64,000 nucleotides of DNA from Plasmodiophora brassicae (lineage: Eukaryota), in assembly GCA_036867785.1 (NCBI GenBank), contig CP145414.1, forward strand, positions 248,001 through 312,000. Reading direction: 5' to 3'. Positions 6,335 through 14,663 of this stretch are shown piece after piece. The notes beneath the pieces are model-generated. The model was not told where the DNA came from. It ran no database searches and saw only the letters and a program-made list of their open reading frames with translations. Position numbers and translations under genes: made by a program. Every line of letters starts with the position of its first letter. Position 1 is the stretch's first letter.

Positions 6335-7215
6335 CTAGGCGATCCAGTTGGGGCCATTCTCGCCCAGCTTGTCCGCGACGTTCACGATCTGAACGTCATA
6401 TCCGATCGACAGCAGCAGCGCTCGTATGACGTGGACGTCCGGGTCGTCGTCGGGCAGGACGACCCTGGGCGTGCGGTCCTCTTCGCAGAGGAAACCGGGC
6501 AGGCCGCGAAGGTCCCACGGGTCGCGCTTGTGCAGCCGACAGATCTCCGACGGGATGTGCCGCTCCTCGACGCCCGCCTCCACCATCAGCTCCACGAACC
6601 GGTTGATATTCTGGTCGCTGTGGCGTTTGGCGACGATGGCCTTGAACTTGTCCTGTCGGGTTGGCCGCCCGACGTGTCCCGTCTTCGGATGGTACGTGCT
6701 CATCTCGTCAATTTCCTCTGCAGCACGCTCTGAGATACGTACAACCGGGGCCAGCGCGTCTGGCCCAGCACATCGAGTACCTGACGTAAGGAAGATCTTC
6801 TCCATGTCCTCTACGATCATGTGTCATCGGCACGACGTATGCCGGGGCGCACGCAGCGACAATCGACGTTACCGATGTATCGGGCGGCGCTCAGCACCTC
6901 GGCGCGCTTGGCGAGCACAACCAGCAGCGTATCGCCGCGCTTCGCCTCATGGAGTGGACGGCTGGGATTCTGCTTCCTGATCTTCTCGAGGTCGTCGAAC
7001 CTGTTGTCCCACCGCTCGACCGCATCCCGCTTCATGCGATACGCTGTGCGCTTCAGGTCCCTCGCCGTCTATACGGGACACACACACACACAGACGCGGC
7101 ACGCGAATCAGCAGCAGGAAGGTGCGGCCACGACACCCCGCCCCACCGGCGCTTTCGTACTTTGCCATCGCGGCCCCGCGCCTGCGTTCCACAGGCGGCG
7201 GCGCACCCGGATCAT
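6335..7215 (-). CDS. Hypothetical protein, possibly mitochondrial; about 3 exons
   Basis: Coding-like ORFs 6335-6820 and 6817-7035 plus Arg-rich N-terminus MIRVRRRLWNAG..WQST; no recognised domain. Confidence 0.55.
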
Positions 7216-7475
7216 GCCACGCTCCGACTGAGCAGGACACGCGGCGCGCGCGGATCTCCGCTGGCAGGTGGGCGGACGACAGAGGAGTGAGGCCACGACT
7301 GGACAGCAGGGGACAACGGAAGGAGATCGCACCTGGCAGCAGTGGAAGGCGCGGTTGTCGTCTGCCCGGTCTATTTTATAGCATGGAATATATACCGCTA
7401 CTATCGAATGTAGACGTGCAGGTTGCACTCGAGATGGTATAGGCTGGGGGCGTCGTCGGCGATGTCGCGCAGGGG

Positions 7476-10400
7476 TCATGCGTACCCGAACCCGACGTGG
7501 TCGATATGGGACAGGACGATCTGCATCTTGTTGCGAACCAGGTCGGCGTCGGCGTAGTCGGGCATGTCGAGCGTGTGGAAACACGTGTGCCCGACCGGGA
7601 GCCGATCGCCGCCGCTCATCTTGCGGATCGTGATCTTCCTTTGTAGGCCGCCCATCGGCAGGCACGACAACGACGTGCACAGGCGGAGGAACCGCCGAAG
7701 GTCTTCCTCGCTGCACGTGTTCAGGAACGCCACCAACATGTCCGGCGTCGGGCTGTCTTGCCAGGCGTCCTCGAAGACGACCTCCCGAAGGACCATGGCG
7801 CTATCGATGCTGGGGACCCCGCATATGAGTATTCGCAGGTCGGCGGGGGCCAGCCGGGCGCACTGGTCCCGAAGCCCTTGCAGCGTGAAGAAACCGGTTC
7901 GCAGCGCCTCCAGCTGCGGTCGTCGCCGCTCGATCAGGAACTGCCTGATCTTGTCGCGGACGTACGCGCGACGATTGCAGGGCAGCGGCATGTCCGTCTG
8001 CACGTCCATCGATGTCACCGACGACGACATGGACGCCGTCATCATGTTCCGGAACGAGTTTGCCATCGTCCGGTCGTAGTCGTACAGGTCGGACAGGTCC
8101 GGGTCGATGTCGAGGAAGAACTTGATCATGGCCGACGAGAACTGTAACGGGACAACGCGGCCGTCGATCAGCGTCTTGCACATGGCCTTGCCGATGGCGG
8201 CGTAGAACGACAGGCTAAAGTTCTGCGGGTTCGGCAGGTACGACGGCCCGGACGTTGGGCAGTCCTCCTCCGGGGCGCACTCGAACAGGTTCTCCCCGGG
8301 CGCGACAATCTTCAGGAAGAACTCTGTGAACAGGTCCGCCGTCAACCCGCCTGGAGACACAGCGCCCATCAGCACAGCGTTGGCACAGTGGAGCCGCTCG
8401 CGTGCGTGACCTTGATCAATGCCCTGCGAGGACTGCTGGCTGTACTTTGTGCGGAAGTTCATCAGCAGGTCGGCGCTGACGGCCGTCTCCAGCGACGTGA
8501 TCACGCCGTACAGGATGCTGTCGCGCTCGACGTGAATGAGGAAATCCTGTGACCGCCGTGGCTGGGAGGCCAGGAACGCCTGCAGCTGATGCACCCTCCC
8601 GTCGCTTGTCAGGCGGACCAGCTGCCGCCAGGCGATCATCTCCTTGACAATGTCGCCGGAGCAGAACGGGAGGTCCAGCGATTCGCTGGCGGAGCACTGC
8701 CCGGATACCAGGGCGCCCAGCAGCTCCCTGACGGTTTCGGGCGTGTCGACCGGCAACGGGGGCACCACTTTCGTGCCGACAATCAAGTCGTCGCCGGTGA
8801 CCCATTTGTAGAGCAGCTGAGCAACCGCGATCGTGTCCGATGTGCACCCGTCGGCGTCGACGCTCATTTGCAGAGACGAGTACAGGCGCGCGCGCGAGAA
8901 ATCGATCAGCACCGGCGAGAAGTCGAACGACACGAGAAGGATGTTTCGCGGGTGCAGGTTCCCGTGGCACATGCCCCGGGCGTGCAACGCCGACAGCGCT
9001 CGTAGGATGAGTATGACCAGGTGGCGAACCTAACGAGGCCGGACAATAGTCAGGAATCGCATGTCGAGGCGTGCGCCAGCGCGCCTCTGGTGTCCCGGGC
9101 GTACCTCGTGCCCTTCTGGGCGACTGGCCAGCCAGTCCTCGGCGTTGCCTTTCTCGTAGATCGGCGACTCGATGTACGCGAACCCCGTGCCCGGGTCGAG
9201 GAAGACGGTGCTGACAGGTGCGACAAAGATACAGGTCTCCTGCAGGGCGCCGCGAACGGCGACGTCTGCCGACAGCGCCTGGAACTGGGCCGCATCGCTC
9301 AGGTCGAACTGCTTCAGGACGCATGGCTCATGCCCATGCAGAAGGCAGCGTGTCACCCGCGGCGACAGCGGGCTCGTCTCCAGCGTGTACTCCTCCAGGG
9401 AGCACAACGAGACCAGCCCGGTGCGCCGAACCGGGTCCGGGAGCGCCGCCCACGGATCGACGACCTCGGCCGAATCCGCCATCGCCGCCGCCGCCATGCT
9501 CTCCACGCTGGCCGCCTCCTGCCGCGCCTTGTCCAACCGGGCGGTCGCCTCCGCCTGCGCGACGGGCGCCACGCCATGCACCCGCATCAGCTCCAGCTCG
9601 CACGACATCCGCGCCAGCTGCGCCCGCAGGTCCACCATCCGGCCCGACAGCGACGCGCGCTGCACCGCCTTGGCCTGACACCCAGACAACCCGTCATTCT
9701 CTGGATCCGAGTCAAGGGTCAACAAAAATAAAAATAAAGTCACGCGGTGCGCGGCGCGTTACGTCGCGCAAAACACAAATAGACCGCCGGGGCACTGCGG
9801 CAGTGGCGCATCCACGGGGAAATGATGCGCCCGTCGGCGTGCGTTTACCTCGGCGAGCGTGAACGACGGCCGCGGCCGCGTCGTCACCGCCACGCAGTAG
9901 TCGTACAGCGCCATGCAGTCGGCGTGCAGGCGCTCGGCGACGTCCCCGGCCATGTGCGTCAGCTCGGCGGCCAGCTGGGCGGCCGCCCCCGCAAGGGTCG
10001 CGCGCGCCTCCCGCTCGGCCAGCGTCGACGCCGACACGCGGTCGGCGACGGCGCGCGCGTCATCGATTCTGGGCGTGATCGCCATGTCCGTATCGTCGGG
10101 CGTCGTCGTGTCCGACTCGTTCTGCGCTTTGTGCTCCGTGGCCATGCCGTCGTCGTCCGCCTTGTCGTCATCAGGGACGGCGGCGAGCTCCTGCATGACC
10201 GCCTCGCACTGGTCGCGACGCTTGCTGCACCCGTCGAGCCACGTCCTGGCCAGGTCGACGCACTCGCTGACACTCTTGTCGACCCTCGCCGCCGGCGACG
10301 CGTCGTCGTCGCCAATCGAGGTCGACCTCGACAGCAGCATCGAGGCCGCCGCCTGCGACGACGCCTGCAGTGCGTTCTTATCGGCGATGGTTCGCGATGC

Positions 10401-10940
10401 CAGATCAATGGCAGGCGAGGCCAGCGCCATCGCGCGCGTCGCCGTCGCCGCGTACCGCTCGGCGGCGACCGCCAGCTGGGCGGACGTCAATCGGTCGCAC
10501 AGGCGATGGATCTGCAGGATCATGCTGCGCTGGTGGAGCAGGACGGCGTACCGGGCCTCCCTGACAAGGACGACCTGGCTGTCCAGCTGCTTCTTCATCG
10601 ACGTGATCGCCTGCGACGCCTGCAGGATGGGCGGGACGACGTCGACGATCGCCTGCGCCAGGGCCTGCGACCCGGTCCAGAACGACATCTCCCGGCGCAG
10701 GTCAGCCATCAGGCGCTGCCTGTCGATCGGGGGCGGCGGAGGTTCGGGTCGGGGCCCGTCGCACGCCTCGCATTTGTCGGGGCCGGTGACGTTCAGGAAC
10801 GTGCACTGGGCGCATTCCCACGGTTCCGGCGGTCGCGTGGCCTGGGCCGCCCCTCGTGGCGTCGCCGGGTTATTGCAGACCGGGCAGACCGTCGTGCTGT
10901 CGTCCGGGAAGATGAACGTGCACCGCGAGCAGGCGACCAT
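7476..10940 (-). CDS. HECT E3 ligase fused to two RanBP2/NZF zinc fingers, a coiled coil and a kinase-like domain; introns 9675-9848, 9030-9104 and 8351-8410
   Basis: CSRCTF..CPVC and WECAQCTFLN..CEAC; VLKQF, CHGNLHPRNILL, LIDFS; HECT GIDQGGLT..LPNP..LPVGHTCFHTLDMPDY..GFGYA; splice junctions keep the frame. Confidence 0.88.
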
Positions 10941-11159
10941 GACGGCCGGGGGCGATCCCGCCGTCGCGCCCAATCGGCCTCGGTCCCAGTGTGTGTGCGG
11001 CCTGATAGCAAGTCACCCCTGTGACGGATGGGCAACCCTGTCTGTGTGTGCCCCCGCCCTGCCACCACCACCACCACCGCCCACGATCGCTCCAGCACGT
11101 TCTCGAACACGGCGGCGCCTGCGCGTCTGCGCCTGTCGACGATCTATCGCGTCGTGCGG

Positions 11160-12911
11160 TCACACCGGGACGATTCGTGTAATGTTGCCCAGCTGCGCGT
11201 GCAGGTCGTCCAGGTCCAACGGCTGCGTCCCGGGCACCTGTGTGTGGGGGGAGCGGCTCCGATCAGTGGACCACCCCGCCGACGCCATGCGACAGTACCT
11301 TTCGGTTCGCGATCCGGGTGCCGAACTGGATGGCACGTTTCTGCAGGCGCGCCACGTGGTGCAGGCCGAGCTCGGCGGCCGCCTGGCGCAGGATCCGCTT
11401 GTCGCCGCCGGCCGCGTCCAGACGCGCAACCTGTTTCAGGTCCAGAGCCCGGACGAACCCGTGCACGTCGCGGTCGAGGTACGGGTACAGGGTGTCGCGG
11501 CCGTGGTCGGCGCACAGGCGATCATCGCGACCCAGATTCCTGCGATGTAATCGTCGGAAGTCGGCGTCAATCTCACGAGCCGCCTCCGGCCACCCGCCGC
11601 GACGGAACGCGGTTCGGTGCCGGCCGTACCCGCCGAACAGCTCGTCGGCACCTAACCCTGACAGGAGCACGCGGCTCGCCGATGTGTACGGGCGCCACAG
11701 GTCGTCCGACCCGTACAGGTCGACAGCGTTGCCGAATTGGCCATCGCCGCCATCGCCAACGTAACGACAGTGCGCCGACTGGATCAGCGTTGTGTGGCCG
11801 CTGTCGTGGAGCACCCGCCCACGTCCTCGTGAGGAGAACCAGAGCACAGCGCCGAGGTTCATGTCCATAACGGTGCGGTGCGGGTGCAGGAGCGCCGCCA
11901 GACGCTGCGCTTCGTTGCGAACGTCCTCCAACGTCACATCGATCGCGACCAGGCGGTACTCACGCCCGGGACAGCATCGACGAAGCTCGACCAGGGCGTT
12001 CAGCGCCGTCTGCCGATCGGGGACGGCGAGCGGCGACGACCCGAACGCGAAGTTCAACAGATCAATGGGACAACCGGTGGGGAGGCACCTGTCGGCGAGC
12101 GCCGCTGTGTACACGAAACGCATTCAGCCCGGGAACGAGAGGCGCGCGTGCAGAAGCGCTTACCGAGCACTGTGCAGTCCAGGCCGCCCGAGAACAGGAT
12201 GCCGATCGGGGCGCCGTCGACCTGGCGGTCCAGAAGCGTCGTGCGACGCCGCACGGATCGCAGCAGACGCTCGAGGAGCTCCATGTGCGGCGGTTGCTTC
12301 AGCGAGGGCATCGGCATGACGGGCAACACCGGATCCGCGCCCAGCTGCGCTTCACCTCGCACATGCGGCCAGGGTTCCAGCGTCACGCCCTTCGCGTCGT
12401 CGTTGCCGTCGTCGTCGACGGACCGCCAGAAGACGCCCGTGCAAGGCAATTCCCGCCACTGCGACGACGCGCCATCGGCCACGGACGCAATCGCGAACGG
12501 CTGCTGTCGGGTCAGCAGGCTTCGCCGGCCGAGCATGTCCCTGCACAGGAACAGGCGCCTGGACGCGTGCGCGTAGTACACGATCGCGAACGGGCCGCGC
12601 ACTCGCGACAACGACCGTGCGATCTCGGCCGGGTCGCCGCGGCACTCCCGCAGCACATCCCTGAGGAAGGTCGTGTCGCTCTCGCCGCTCGGCACGGCGT
12701 CGTCGTCGAACAGTTCGCCGTTGAACGCGAGCAGGTCGCCATTGTCGCAGACGGCGGGCTGCGTCGTGGGAACCCGGCCGCGCACATGCAGGACCGACGC
12801 CGCCAGCCGCAGCGGCGACGCCGGGATGGCCGCCACGCCGCAGTGGTCCGGCCCGCGCCGCTCCAGCCACTGCAACGGCACGTCGCCGTCGCCGCACCAG
12901 ATGCCGCACAT
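11160..12911 (-). CDS. ASNSD1: Asparagine synthetase domain-containing protein 1; multi-exon
   Basis: MCGI N-terminal nucleophile, RRGPD, FNGE, RDMLGRRSLL, LFSGGLDC, GLGADELFGGY, RNLGRDDR, KRAIQFG. Confidence 0.92.
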
Positions 12912-13046
12912 GCCCCACGGACGCGTCTGCAGTCCACCAGTGGCGCAATTCTCGCCGAGGCGGGCCCGTGTAACGCGCGCCCCACGGGGGAGCAACTGCG
13001 TCGATGCAGCTGCAGCTGCAGCAGAGTCGCGCATCGCCGGGGCTCC

Positions 13047-14663
13047 ATGACGCAACGGCCGACCCAGGTGCTCGCCCGGCGTCACGCACACGTCGTTGGC
13101 CCGCGGCGGCCGCTCAGCGAATTCTTTCGCCGGCCCAGCGTGTCCGTCGCTGTCCGCATCCTGATGTGCGACACGGTCGACCCGGATACGCGCTGGTCGG
13201 TGTTTACCGTCGTGGCGGGTTCGCGATTGGGGCCCCGCGCCCCGTTCTTTCAGCGCGCCCTGCAGTTCTGCCACCGGTGCATGCCTGCGAAGGCGCCTGA
13301 CGTTCTCCACGCCGCCGTGCGCCATGGGATCGCCGTACACGAGAACGACACGCTGTTCTGTACGTTCCTGGGCGCGTGCAGGGCGACGACCCCGCCTCCG
13401 CTGCAACCTGCGTTCGACGCGTATCGTCGCTGCGGGCCGCGTACCCATAACGTCATCTCCAGCCTCGTCAGTATCTGCCGACTCGCGAACCGGCCTGAGA
13501 GGGCGCTGGCCCTCGTCGCCGACGCCGTCGACAACGACGTCGACATCAGCCAGCATTTGCTGTCCCTGTTCGCCGTGTGCTGTGCGACCTCGCAGACGCC
13601 CCACGCAGCCGACACCGCCGAACGCATCCTGGACCTGGTTCGATCCAGCCGCATCGCCCCACATCCAAACTACCCGACCTACGCCAACCTTGTCAAGGCG
13701 CTGCTGTGCCAGGCCCGGTTCGACGCCGCCGTCGGCGCTCTCGACCTGCTGGATTCGGTCGGTTTGCCACCATGCCAGCATCTGTACGGCCTGGTCGTGG
13801 GCGCCCTTGTCCACGCCGAACACATGGACAAGGCGATGTCCGTGTTTCGTCGCGTCGCTGAACGACGTGTGCGCTTGCTCGCCCACGTGTTCACCAGCCT
13901 GGTGGCCGCCTGTGGACGCTACCAGTACCGGGGACATACCCGCGCGTTGTACCGCTATGCAACGGACCATGGGTACCTCGACGACGTCTTCATCGTCGAT
14001 GCGTTCATTGCCGCGTTCCGTCGTTGCGGCTGCATTGTCGATGCTCGCCAGCTGTTCTGCTCGCTGACGCTCCCGCAAACGTCGACTCGTAAGGCGATGG
14101 TCGCCGCGTACAACCACCACGACCTGTATCGCGACGCGATTGCGACGTTCAATGATTGTAGACGCGTCGGGCACCTGCTGCCGGGCAACGTCTACAGTTG
14201 CATTGTGGAAGTGTTCGCCTCCCGCGATCGGGTTCGTGACGCGCTAGCCGTCTTTCGCGAAATGGCGGAACACGACGTCGAATGCAGCGCGCCCGCCTTT
14301 ACCTGTCTTGTCCTAACGTGCGGTCGCAATTCGCACCAGTTCGCTCTGCAGGCCCTGCACCGCTTCGCGCTGTCTCGCGACTCGGATACGCTGCTGTCCG
14401 GCGCCAGCGTTGCATTCGTCGCAGCCTACATCCGATGCGGCCGCCCACAGGATGCATTGCGTGTGCTCTCGTCAATGTCGTCGGCGGACCTCATCGTCAA
14501 GGCGGTCGCCCTGGTCGAGCAACTGAAGACCGCCGGCCAACTGCCAGCGGATATGGCTGATCGGCTGATCTCCTCGGCGGGCCGCCGCCGCTGCGGGACG
14601 CTCCCTGTTTCACCGTCGTTGTCGCGGGATGGCCTCGCTGAACGCTCGCCGACGGTCGAATAA
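13047..14663 (+). CDS. Pentatricopeptide-repeat (PPR) protein, intronless
   Basis: Repeated ~35-aa helical units (TYANLVKALL..., VFTSLVAACG, AFIAAFRRCG..DARQLF, AFVAAYIRCGRPQDALRVL). Confidence 0.85.
   Translation: MTQRPTQVLARRHAHVVGPRRPLSEFFRRPSVSVAVRILMCDTVDPDTRWSVFTVVAGSRLGPRAPFFQRALQFCHRCMPAKAPDVLHAAVRHGIAVHENDTLFCTFLGACRATTPPPLQPAFDAYRRCGPRTHNVISSLVSICRLANRPERALALVADAVDNDVDISQHLLSLFAVCCATSQTPHAADTAERILDLVRSSRIAPHPNYPTYANLVKALLCQARFDAAVGALDLLDSVGLPPCQHLYGLVVGALVHAEHMDKAMSVFRRVAERRVRLLAHVFTSLVAACGRYQYRGHTRALYRYATDHGYLDDVFIVDAFIAAFRRCGCIVDARQLFCSLTLPQTSTRKAMVAAYNHHDLYRDAIATFNDCRRVGHLLPGNVYSCIVEVFASRDRVRDALAVFREMAEHDVECSAPAFTCLVLTCGRNSHQFALQALHRFALSRDSDTLLSGASVAFVAAYIRCGRPQDALRVLSSMSSADLIVKAVALVEQLKTAGQLPADMADRLISSAGRRRCGTLPVSPSLSRDGLAERSPTVE

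What the first reader, a model, noticed from the sequence alone, without database searches (positions are those of the whole stretch)
7476..10940. NZF-NZF-coiled-coil-pseudokinase-HECT fusion
Seen: GT-AG introns join two RanBP2/NZF fingers (both with the TF dipeptide typical of ubiquitin-binding NZFs), a long helical region, a kinase fold and a complete HECT domain with catalytic HTCF into one ~1050-aa protein. The kinase has HGNLHPRN in place of HRDLKPxN (catalytic Asp to Asn), DFS instead of DFG, no Gly-rich loop and a short activation segment, so it is likely a pseudokinase. I do not recognise kinase-HECT as a characterised architecture. Inference: a ubiquitin-chain-reading ligase gated by a nucleotide-sensing pseudokinase.
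Basis: partly seen in the sequence, partly recalled or inferred. Interest (0 to 1): 0.75.

Follow-up and report, generated by a model that had tools for sequence, protein, structure and literature searches.

The report
Zinc-finger, dead-kinase HECT ubiquitin ligase
This is a real, expressed gene of a plasmodiophorid-like protist for a ubiquitin ligase that carries ubiquitin-type zinc fingers and a catalytically dead kinase domain; kinase-ligase fusions are already known in protists and one has been studied in Leishmania, so this is an unstudied variant, not a new kind of enzyme.

Summary
The minus-strand gene has three GT-AG introns, not two. Contigs from three studies lack all three introns. 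The product is 1051 aa and colinear with a 1059-aa Spongospora subterranea protein (57% identity).

Domains:
- Two N-terminal zinc fingers. The second is a canonical NZF, closest to the TAB3, NPL4 and TAB2 NZFs.
- About 375 helical residues.
- A kinase fold (Z 23, tested on the ortholog) with Asp-to-Asn in the catalytic loop, DFS for DFG, and a 19-residue activation segment without APE.
- A complete HECT domain (144.7 bits).

The claim that kinase-HECT is uncharacterised is wrong. A 2013 survey noted it. Leishmania TKUL/HECT12 is described as a HECT ligase with an allosteric regulatory kinase. This scan met kinase-HECT genes before, in Naegleria.

The kinase-linker-HECT cassette matches the TPR-kinase-HECT group (hhalign 100%, E 2e-115). 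Three environmental relatives share the zinc finger-kinase-HECT layout.

Verdict: a new zinc-finger, pseudokinase variant of a known family. Function is untested.

The parts
7476..10940 (-). Whole gene from ATG to stop: 4 exons, 3 introns, 1051-aa product
   Evidence: Spliced translation has no internal stop. Single contigs in runs X3 and X5 cover 7300-11100 with all three introns removed. The product is colinear with Spongospora P0001.
9849..10940 (-). Exon 1 (residues 1-364): two zinc fingers and most of the helical region
   Evidence: First in-frame ATG after an upstream stop at 11013-11015. The N-terminus matches P0001.
9675..9848 (-). Intron 1, 174 nt, GTAAAC..CAG, phase 0
   Evidence: Skipped in contigs of X3 and X5. 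The junction is colinear with P0001.
9105..9674 (-). Exon 2 (residues 365-554): end of the helical region and the kinase N-lobe
9030..9104 (-). Intron 2, 75 nt, GTACGC..TAG, phase 0, splits the kinase-like domain
   Evidence: Skipped in contigs of X1, X3, X5 and X10.
8411..9029 (-). Exon 3 (residues 555-761, first base of codon 761): kinase C-lobe, linker and start of HECT
8351..8410 (-).
   Evidence: Skipped in X3, X5 and X10. The matching 20 residues are absent from P0001 and P0002. Removing it restores the HECT motif GIDQGGLT.
7476..8350 (-). Exon 4 (residues 761-1051 plus the stop codon at 7476-7478): rest of HECT
10875..10931 (-). Zinc finger 1 (C4-C22), CxxC-x11-CxxC with TF; degenerate RanBP2-type finger without the Trp and Asn
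   Evidence: The finger aligned at this position in P0009 and P0010 is canonical (W-x-C-x2-C-T-L-x-N). It has no Pfam RanBP match of its own.
10761..10820 (-). Zinc finger 2 (W41-C60), canonical NZF signature W-x-C-x2-C-T-F-x-N-x6-C-x2-C
   Evidence: Pfam Zn_ribbon_RanBP 18.1 bits, under the cut-off of 27. Best single-domain PDB matches are the TAB3 NZF (6.5e-5), NPL4 NZF (6e-4) and TAB2 NZF (1e-3).
9447..10748 (-). Helical region (residues 65-440; contains intron 1), poorly conserved
   Evidence: Long helices in the model of the ortholog, pLDDT mostly 55-66. 31% identity to P0001. No Pfam family.
8622..9446 (-). Kinase-like (pseudokinase) domain, residues about 441-690; contains intron 2
   Evidence: Fold match of ortholog residues 466-690 to CHK2, Aurora A, PhK, CaMKII and CDK2: Z 22.8-23.1, rmsd 2.3-3.0 A over 208-228 residues. 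Pkinase scores only 18.3 bits, under the cut-off of 31.7. 67% identity to P0001.
9312..9314 (-). Lys485, the beta3 (VAIK) lysine, retained
   Evidence: Alignment column holds K in 51 of 56 readable rows.
8943..8966 (-). Catalytic loop HGNLHPRN (residues 576-583): Asn578 replaces the catalytic Asp, His580 replaces the Lys, Asn583 is kept
   Evidence: 39 of 56 readable family rows keep Asp and 10 have Asn.
8895..8903 (-). DFS (residues 597-599) in place of DFG; the Asp is kept
7479..8549 (-). HECT domain (residues about 715-1051; contains intron 3)
   Evidence: Pfam HECT 6.5e-42, 144.7 bits against a cut-off of 23.9. Ortholog model against the HUWE1 HECT domain: Z 34.9, rmsd 3.3 A over 346 residues.
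7581..7583 (-). Catalytic cysteine Cys1017 in LPVGHTCFHTLDMPDY
   Evidence: Sequence. The family consensus is LPVxHTC.

Best explanation
The gene encodes a 1051-aa HECT E3 ubiquitin ligase of the protist kinase-HECT family, the family that includes Leishmania TKUL/HECT12. It sits in a distinct clade whose members carry two N-terminal RanBP2/NZF-type zinc fingers instead of TPR repeats.

Shown:
- One spliced reading frame.
- A complete HECT domain with its catalytic Cys1017.
- A true kinase fold (tested on the ortholog).
- Homology of the whole kinase-linker-HECT cassette to the cassette of relatives with intact kinase motifs.
- Loss of the catalytic Asp (Asn578), the HRDLK Lys (His580), the DFG Gly and the APE-bearing part of the activation segment.
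- Strong conservation of this degenerate domain between two plasmodiophorid-like species.

Inferred:
- The kinase domain no longer phosphorylates. It is kept as a structural or allosteric partner of the HECT domain.
- It may still bind nucleotide through Lys485, Asn583 and Asp597.
- The autophosphorylation switch reported for TKUL has probably been replaced by a fixed or ligand-set conformation.
- NZF finger 2 probably binds ubiquitin. That would direct the ligase to already ubiquitinated proteins or help chain extension.
- The poorly conserved helical region is a spacer or an oligomerisation or substrate-docking element.
For: Gene model:
- Three GT-AG introns are skipped in contigs from studies P2, P3 and P4, and single contigs span all exons.
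- The Spongospora protein is colinear end to end at 57% identity.

HECT:
- Pfam 144.7 bits.
- Fold Z 34.9 to the HUWE1 HECT domain.
- The HTC motif and a C-terminal GFGYA tail are present.

Kinase fold:
- Z about 23, rmsd 2.3-3.0 A over 208-228 residues.
- pLDDT is mostly above 90 in that region.

Family membership:
- BLASTP is colinear with P0002 over window residues 482-1069 of the two-intron model.
- hhalign of the zinc-finger clade against the TPR clade gives 100% probability and E 2e-115 over 627 columns, from just before the kinase to the C-terminus.
- 9gmp_A is the only kinase chain among the 60 PDB rows shown (of 65 matches) for P0001 at E <= 0.01 (E 1.8e-5).
- 9gmp_A is also the top PDB match for P0009 (3.2e-26) and P0002 (9.4e-59).

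Clade:
- P0007, P0009 and P0010 have RanBP finger(s), Pkinase and HECT.
- They group with the window protein and P0001 at SH-aLRT 97 in a quick tree.

Dead kinase:
- The motif table shows the lost catalytic residues.
- The activation segment is 19 residues against a family median of 42.

Selection on the dead domain:
- Identity to P0001 is 67% in the kinase-like domain and 31% in the helical region.

NZF:
- Finger 2 is closest to the TAB3, NPL4 and TAB2 NZFs.

TKUL background:
- Passages in PMC13196369 and in preprint 10.64898/2026.05.08.723729.
Against: - No biochemical data exist for this protein or its clade.
- Pfam Pkinase and Zn_ribbon_RanBP both score under their curated cut-offs on the window protein (18.3 against 31.7, and 18.1 against 27).
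- The fold test used the Spongospora ortholog, because the window's kinase domain is split by an intron and a joined sequence could not be submitted.
- Lys485, Asn583 and Asp597 are retained, so some nucleotide-dependent or atypical catalytic activity cannot be excluded.
- The TF dipeptide is not conserved across the clade. Relatives have TL or TY.
- The position before the last Cys is Ala, where NPL4 has Met and TAB2/3 have Gln. Ubiquitin binding is therefore not assured.
- That 9gmp is the TKUL kinase domain rests on earlier AI notes and on the chain's molecule name. I could not read the primary paper.
- The runs that gave spliced contigs are only guessed to be RNA.
- The tree is the quick version, rooted at the midpoint.
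Confidence: 0.6

Rival explanations
1. The kinase domain is still an active, atypical kinase or ATPase, and it gates the ligase by autophosphorylation as reported for TKUL.
For: - The beta3 Lys485, Asn583 and the DFG Asp597 are kept, and an acidic residue (Asp501) sits at the alphaC Glu position.
- The domain is 67% identical between two species.
- The family as a whole lacks a classical Gly-rich loop, yet most members keep the catalytic Asp (39 of 56 readable rows).
Against: - The catalytic Asp is Asn in the window protein, P0001 and P0008.
- The HRDLK Lys is His.
- The activation segment is cut to 18-19 residues, with no APE or P+1 loop. It is the shortest of 56 readable rows against a median of 42.
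- The Arg of the alphaH-alphaI region that is conserved in relatives is absent.
Confidence: 0.12
2. The fingers are not ubiquitin readers. Like other RanBP2-type fingers they bind RNA, Ran or another protein, or they serve only as a structural cap. Substrate choice would then lie in the helical region.
For: - The Pfam score is under the cut-off.
- Finger 1 lacks the Trp and the Asn.
- TF varies to TL or TY in clade relatives.
- RanBP2 and Nup153 fingers are also among the PDB matches.
Against: - The best single-domain matches of finger 2 are the TAB3, NPL4 and TAB2 NZFs (E 6.5e-5 to 1e-3), with identical C-T-F-L/M-N cores.
- From recall, those three NZFs bind ubiquitin.
- The fingers are 62% identical to those of P0001.
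Confidence: 0.3
3. The fusion is an annotation or assembly artefact: two or more neighbouring genes wrongly joined.
For: - The only record of the window's own gene in the protein collection is a 498-aa ORF starting at Met574, with intron 3 read through (P0006).
- The contigs that hold the gene are 8.4-8.8 kb and run into neighbouring genes.
Against: - Three in-phase GT-AG junctions are used in contigs of three studies.
- There is no stop in the spliced frame.
- The 1059-aa Spongospora protein has the same order throughout.
- P0007, P0009 and P0010 have the same order.
Confidence: 0.03

Closest known systems
Leishmania mexicana TKUL / HECT12 (LmxM.34.4000). Known to me only through passages in review PMC13196369 and preprint 10.64898/2026.05.08.723729, which cite Fokkens et al., Mol Cell 2025. 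The kinase-domain structure is said by earlier notes to be PDB 9gmp.
   Same: - The cassette is the same: kinase domain, conserved linker, HECT domain.
- P0002 matches 9gmp_A at 9.4e-59. Its TPR clade aligns to the window's clade at hhalign 100% and E 2e-115 over 627 columns.
- 9gmp_A is the only kinase chain among the PDB rows shown for the Spongospora ortholog at E <= 0.01.
   Different: - TKUL is described as an active kinase whose autophosphorylation is needed for ligase activity.
- Here the catalytic Asp, the HRDLK Lys, the DFG Gly and the APE-bearing activation segment are lost.
- The N-terminal module here is two zinc fingers plus a helical region. The 9gmp-like relatives carry TPR repeats.
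- The two groups form separate clades in the quick tree.
'GL-Bikonta' HECT proteins with kinase domains in Naegleria gruberi and Ectocarpus siliculosus (Grau-Bove et al. 2013, PMC3673628)
   Same: [quoted passage not shown] An ankyrin-Pkinase-HECT representative (P0033) is among the relatives found here and also has HGN in its catalytic loop.
   Different: The survey passages I read do not report a zinc finger-kinase-HECT combination or a dead kinase. zf-RanBP is mentioned there only for other HECT families (KIAA0614, HECTHe4). I did not test whether the window protein falls in their GL-Bikonta class.
Environmental relatives P0007, P0009 and P0010 (Logan and JGI metagenome proteins, unnamed or called 'serine/threonine protein kinase')
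   Same: - The order is the same: one or two RanBP2-type fingers, a long spacer, Pkinase and HECT.
- They share a clade with the window protein (SH-aLRT 97).
- Their catalytic loops are also degenerate: HGNLKLVN, HRNINPEN and HGDLCAKA.
   Different: - Their kinase domains still pass the Pfam cut-off (55.6-107.1 bits).
- They keep longer activation segments of 34-55 residues.
- Identity to P0001 is 33-39%.
NZF domains of TAB2/TAB3 and NPL4
   Same: Finger 2 shares the W-x-C-x2-C-T-F-[LM]-N-x6-C-E-x-C-x-x-P-R pattern.
   Different: - The context is a HECT ligase, not a kinase adaptor or a p97 cofactor.
- The residue before the last Cys is Ala here.
- Chain preference is unknown.

Membership tests
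HECT E3 ubiquitin ligases (PF00632) | Profile match above the curated cut-off | tested here: met
   144.7 bits against 23.9, E 6.5e-42, profile positions 6-300 of 306.
HECT E3 ubiquitin ligases (PF00632) | Catalytic cysteine in the C-lobe and a hydrophobic residue at position -4 of the tail | tested here: met
   Cys1017 lies in LPVGHTCFHTLDMPDY, and the C-terminus GFGYA has Phe at -4. The significance of the -4 Phe is recalled knowledge.
HECT E3 ubiquitin ligases (PF00632) | Bilobal HECT fold | tested here: met
   On the Spongospora ortholog model: HUWE1 HECT Z 34.9, rmsd 3.3 A over 346 residues; UBR5 and Rsp5 Z 32-33. The HECT region is 83% identical to the window protein.
HECT E3 ubiquitin ligases (PF00632) | Ubiquitin thioester formation and transfer | not testable with these tools
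   Needs biochemistry.
Protist kinase-HECT family (TKUL/HECT12-like) | Colinear, homologous kinase-linker-HECT cassette | tested here: met
   hhalign 100%, E 2e-115, 627 columns. BLASTP is colinear with P0002. 27 of the 36 relatives I chose have Pkinase above the cut-off plus HECT.
Protist kinase-HECT family (TKUL/HECT12-like) | Kinase domain nearest to the solved 9gmp chain | tested here: met
   9gmp_A is the only kinase chain among the 60 rows shown (65 matches) at E <= 0.01 for P0001 (1.8e-5). It is the top PDB match for clade member P0009 (3.2e-26). That 9gmp is TKUL comes from earlier notes, not from a source I read.
Protist kinase-HECT family (TKUL/HECT12-like) | Catalytically competent kinase (autophosphorylation switch) | tested here: not met
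   At residue level only: Asn578 replaces the catalytic Asp, His580 replaces the Lys, DFS replaces DFG, and there is no APE. Activity itself was not assayed.
Protist kinase-HECT family (TKUL/HECT12-like) | N-terminal TPR repeats, as in the 9gmp-like clade | tested here: not met
   No TPR family at E <= 1 in the window exons or at E <= 0.1 in P0001. P0002, P0012, P0018, P0019, P0020 and P0032 have TPR repeats.
Eukaryotic protein kinase superfamily (PF00069) / pseudokinase | Profile match above the curated cut-off | tested here: not met
   18.3 bits (window exon piece) and 18.9 bits (P0001) against 31.7. The window domain is split by intron 2, so only part of it was scored.
Eukaryotic protein kinase superfamily (PF00069) / pseudokinase | Two-lobe kinase fold | tested here: met
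   Ortholog model residues 466-690 against CHK2: Z 23.1, rmsd 2.3 A over 208 residues. Aurora A, PhK, CaMKII and CDK2 score Z 22.8-23.0.
Eukaryotic protein kinase superfamily (PF00069) / pseudokinase | Loss of one or more of the VAIK Lys, HRD Asp and DFG Asp (the usual pseudokinase criterion, recalled) | tested here: met
   The HRD Asp is lost (Asn578). The VAIK Lys485 and the DFG Asp597 are kept.
Eukaryotic protein kinase superfamily (PF00069) / pseudokinase | Nucleotide binding | not testable with these tools
   Needs a thermal-shift or mant-ATP assay.
RanBP2-type / NZF zinc finger (PF00641) | Signature W-x-C-x2-C-x3-N-x6-C-x2-C | tested here: met
   Finger 2 (W41-C60) meets it exactly. Finger 1 does not: it has no Trp, no Asn and an 11-residue spacer.
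RanBP2-type / NZF zinc finger (PF00641) | Profile match above the curated cut-off | tested here: not met
   18.1 bits (window) and 23.2 bits (P0001) against 27. Clade relatives P0009 (28.4) and P0010 (48.7, two fingers) pass.
RanBP2-type / NZF zinc finger (PF00641) | TF dipeptide of ubiquitin-binding NZFs (recalled criterion) | tested here: met
   T8-F9 and T47-F48. The third, hydrophobic position is Ala59. Relatives vary to TL or TY.
RanBP2-type / NZF zinc finger (PF00641) | Ubiquitin binding | not testable with these tools
It needs a binding assay.

The most novel reading that the evidence does not exclude
Plasmodiophorid-like protists carry a natural 'dead-switch' version of the TKUL-type kinase-regulated HECT ligase. 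The kinase module has lost catalysis and its activation loop but stays under strong constraint. It would act as a nucleotide- or ligand-set allosteric clamp on the HECT domain. Ubiquitin-binding NZF fingers would replace TPR repeats as the targeting module, making the enzyme a reader and extender of existing ubiquitin marks. If so, the allosteric coupling between kinase fold and HECT would be older and more general than kinase activity itself.
Probability: 0.3. Interest if true: 0.55.

Novelty: new variant of a known kind. Interest (0 to 1): 0.4.

Why it matters
Kinase-regulated HECT ligases have only recently been described mechanistically, and as far as I could see only in Leishmania. A conserved relative whose kinase is dead at residue level offers a natural experiment. 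It can show whether the kinase fold controls the HECT domain through conformation or nucleotide binding alone.

The zinc-finger clade also links that switch to a probable ubiquitin reader. The nearest named relative comes from a plant-pathogenic plasmodiophorid, Spongospora subterranea. A ligase with a drug-like pocket could therefore interest plant pathology, by analogy with the kinase-inhibitor sensitivity reported for TKUL.

The gain is incremental. The architecture itself is not new.

Tried and rejected
- **No RNA holder listed**. All 24 runs listed are Logan contigs, and their RNA status is at best a guess. I used the joints as evidence of splicing. I cannot show that the runs are RNA, and whether the joined forms also stand in DNA runs was not given (table 5b).
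- **Partial splicing in run X1.** Its contig skips only the 75-nt intron and keeps the other two. I read this as a partly spliced or mixed assembly, not as evidence against the introns.
- **Kinase-region word search.** The search with P0001 residues 440-700 found only P0001 itself (1 of 3158 candidates), so it says nothing about distribution.
- **No whole genome held** for the window. Paralogues, including a possible active kinase-HECT copy in the same genome, could not be sought.
- **Primary paper not held.** The TKUL paper (PubMed id 40997810) could not be read. A search for '9GMP' found 3 papers; the 2 listed are not about this protein.
- **Literature searches.** Plasmodiophora/Spongospora + HECT + ubiquitin ligase gave 20 papers with 10 listed. 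HECT + NZF + kinase domain + ubiquitin ligase + protist gave 19 papers with 10 listed. By title and abstract none describes a zinc finger-kinase-HECT protein. I did not open them.
- **'HECT / pseudokinase / kinase-HECT' search.** It returned only unrelated papers among the 15 listed, and no listed paper holds the term 'kinase-HECT'.
- **No earlier scan notes** on this genome.
- **Tree.** The careful search did not finish in the time allowed. The quick tree was used. I left P0022 out of it, along with all proteins holding fewer than 520 residues from the kinase start.
- **Organism.** I did not establish it. 'Plasmodiophorid-like' rests on the one named close relative.
- **Complex prediction.** None was sent, for ubiquitin binding or for self-association.
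- **Gly-rich loop.** I rejected its absence as evidence for a pseudokinase, because the relatives share it.


Full report
**1. What is in the sequence**

The flagged interval holds one gene on the minus strand. It starts at the first in-frame ATG (10940), which follows an upstream stop at 11013-11015. It ends at a stop codon at 7476-7478.

- 9675-9848, 174 nt
- 9030-9104, 75 nt

Aligning the two-intron product with its best database match showed 20 extra residues in the window protein. That match is a 1059-aa protein from Spongospora subterranea (P0001). The extra residues sit inside the HECT motif 'GIDQG-GLT'. The same 20 residues are missing from a more distant relative, P0002. The DNA there is a 60-nt, in-frame, stop-free GT..AG segment at 8351-8410.

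**2. Transcript evidence**

I laid contigs of four public runs from four studies on 7300-11100.
- The 60-nt segment is skipped in 3 of 4 runs (X3, X5, X10).
- The 75-nt segment is skipped in 4 of 4 runs.
- The 174-nt segment is skipped in 2 of 4 runs (X3, X5).
- In X3 and X5 a single contig covers the whole interval with all three segments removed.
- X1 keeps the 60-nt and 174-nt segments.
- X10 has no cover across the 174-nt segment.

Caveats: the runs are only guessed to be RNA, and contigs across genes do not prove one transcript. Even so, three precise in-phase excisions rebuild an uninterrupted frame that is colinear with the ortholog. That is hard to explain otherwise.

The spliced product is 1051 aa. 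It is 57% identical to P0001 over its full length. The only trace of this gene in the protein collections is P0006. That is a 498-aa prokaryote-style ORF call from Met574 with the 60-nt intron read through.

**3. Domains**

*HECT.* Pfam HECT scores 144.7 bits against a cut-off of 23.9. The catalytic Cys1017 lies in LPVGHTCFHTLDMPDY, and the protein ends in GFGYA.

*Zinc fingers.*
- Finger 2 (W41-C60) meets the RanBP2/NZF signature exactly. Its best single-domain matches among solved structures are the NZFs of TAB3 (6.5e-5), NPL4 (6e-4) and TAB2 (1e-3).
- Its Pfam score of 18.1 bits is nevertheless under the cut-off of 27.
- Finger 1 (C4-C22) has four cysteines and a TF dipeptide. It lacks the Trp and the Asn, and it has an 11-residue spacer.
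- In relatives P0009 and P0010 the finger aligned at this position is canonical.

*Helical region.* Residues 65-440 match no family. In the model of the ortholog they form long helices of modest confidence, with pLDDT mostly 55-66. 'Coiled coil' is therefore not shown.

*Kinase-like domain.* The window's kinase-like domain is split by intron 2, and a joined sequence could not be submitted. I therefore folded P0001 with a 50-row alignment (A1). The model had mean pLDDT 78.5, mostly above 90 in the kinase-like and HECT parts.
- Residues 466-690 superpose on CHK2, Aurora A, phosphorylase kinase, CaMKII and CDK2 at Z 22.8-23.1, with rmsd 2.3-3.0 A over 208-228 residues.
- Residues 702-1059 superpose on the HUWE1 HECT domain at Z 34.9.

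So the kinase fold is real, although Pfam Pkinase scores only 18-19 bits against a cut-off of 31.7.

**4. Is the kinase dead?**

I aligned 61 relatives plus the window protein. 56 rows were readable at the catalytic loop. The window protein compares as follows.

Kept:
- The beta3 lysine (K485). The column holds K in 51 of 56 rows.
- The loop Asn583.
- The DFG Asp597. The column holds D in 44 of 56 rows.

Changed:
- Asp instead of Glu at the alphaC position.
- Asn578 instead of the catalytic Asp. The column holds D in 39 rows, N in 10 and other residues in 7.
- His580 instead of the Lys.
- Ser instead of the DFG Gly.

Shortened:
- Only 19 residues lie between DFG and the alphaF Asp, with no APE motif.
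- The family median is 42. P0001 has 18, and P0008 has 19 but is a fragment that ends there. These three are the shortest.

The missing Gly-rich loop is shared by the aligned relatives, including ones with intact HRD and DFG motifs. It carries no weight.

Conservation between the window protein and P0001 by region:

| Region | Identity to P0001 |
|---|---|
| Fingers | 62% |
| Helical region | 31% |
| Kinase-like domain | 67% |
| HECT | 83% |

The degenerate domain is therefore under constraint. I conclude it is a pseudokinase by the usual residue criterion. It may retain nucleotide binding, which remains untested.

**5. Relatives and what is known**

A full scan of 1.84 billion representatives with P0001 gave 3235 proteins at E <= 1e-3, of which 150 were listed.
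- 61 of the 153 proteins held at that point contain a kinase domain homologous to that of P0002. That count includes P0001 and P0002 themselves.
- I chose 36 of them for a Pfam scan, mostly because they had that match, so the sample is biased.
- Of the 36, 27 have Pkinase above the cut-off together with HECT. Two have a sub-threshold Pkinase with HECT. Four have HECT only. Three are fragments.
- N-terminal modules vary: TPR, RCC1, ankyrin, beta-helix and RanBP2-type fingers.
- P0007, P0009 and P0010 have finger(s), Pkinase and HECT, the window's own order.
- In a quick tree of 55 kinase-to-C-terminus sequences these three group with the window protein and P0001 (SH-aLRT 97). The TPR proteins form another group (SH-aLRT 100). 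The tree is midpoint-rooted, and the careful search did not finish.
- Profile comparison of the two groups gives 100% probability and E 2e-115 over 627 columns. The match runs from just before the kinase to the C-terminus. The kinase-linker-HECT cassette is homologous as a unit.
- Named relatives come from a glaucophyte (Gloeochaete) and an amoebozoan (Echinamoeba). Most others are environmental.

Literature:
- Grau-Bove et al. [quoted passage not shown]
- A 2026 preprint states that both activities matter in amastigotes and that autophosphorylation is required for ligase activity (passage read).
- Burge et al. 2020 report fitness defects of a hect12 null mutant (passages read).
- The primary paper is not held.

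PDB chain 9gmp_A is named 'Map kinase kinase-like protein'.
- It is the only kinase chain among the 60 rows shown (of 65 matches) for P0001 at E <= 0.01 (1.8e-5).
- It is the top match of P0009 (3.2e-26).
- It is the top match of P0002 (9.4e-59).
- That it is the TKUL kinase domain comes from the earlier notes, not from a source I read.

**6. Reading**

The gene encodes a member of the known protist kinase-HECT family. It belongs to a zinc-finger clade that I did not find described, by title and abstract, among the papers listed.

In the plasmodiophorid-like lineage the kinase has gone furthest towards a pseudokinase. The most likely mechanism is that the HECT domain is the only catalytic centre. 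The conserved kinase fold and linker would act as an allosteric or structural partner of the HECT domain without phosphotransfer. NZF finger 2 would bind ubiquitin. All three points are inferences.

**7. Surroundings**

The upstream neighbour on the same strand (11263-12123) has an asparagine-synthase domain. A PPR-repeat ORF lies on the plus strand within 11871-14663. Nothing links either to the ligase.

**8. Verdict**

The novelty claim is overturned. What remains is an unstudied zinc-finger, dead-kinase variant of a family whose first mechanistic study appeared in 2025.

Noticed in passing
window 8351-8410: The 60-nt intron is in frame and has no stop. If retained it would insert 20 residues into the HECT 'GIDQGGLT' motif. 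Run X1's contig keeps it, along with the 174-nt intron, while lacking the 75-nt intron. The database ORF P0006 also reads through it.
   Followed up: partly
window 11263-12123 (-): Neighbouring ORF with an asparagine-synthase domain (Pfam 4e-13). The open frame is probably one exon of a larger gene.
   Followed up: no
window 11871-14663 (+): A 930-codon stop-to-stop frame whose C-terminal part carries PPR repeats (PPR 2.4e-12, PPR_long 2.8e-10). It overlaps the asparagine-synthase-like ORF on the other strand, so its true start is probably further downstream.
   Followed up: no
window 7300-11100: The contigs that hold the spliced gene are 8.4-8.8 kb and run beyond both ends of the interval. 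This suggests very short intergenic spacers or overlapping transcripts in this genome.
   Followed up: no
window 9476-9495, 10041-10061, 10291-10334: Short pieces (18-28 nt) of other contigs match these GC-rich stretches, with loose ends at 9495, 10061, 10291 and 10317. They are probably chance or low-complexity matches in the Ala/Asp-rich helical region.
   Followed up: no
relatives P0033, P0067, P0097, P0061, P0032, P0114/P0126: Loss of the catalytic Asp (to Asn, Ser or Ala) recurs in several separate branches of the kinase-HECT family. One is an ankyrin-kinase-HECT protein. Many members with intact HRD have DFD instead of DFG.
   Followed up: partly
window 7080-7094: A short (CA)n run lies in the region downstream of the gene.
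   Followed up: no
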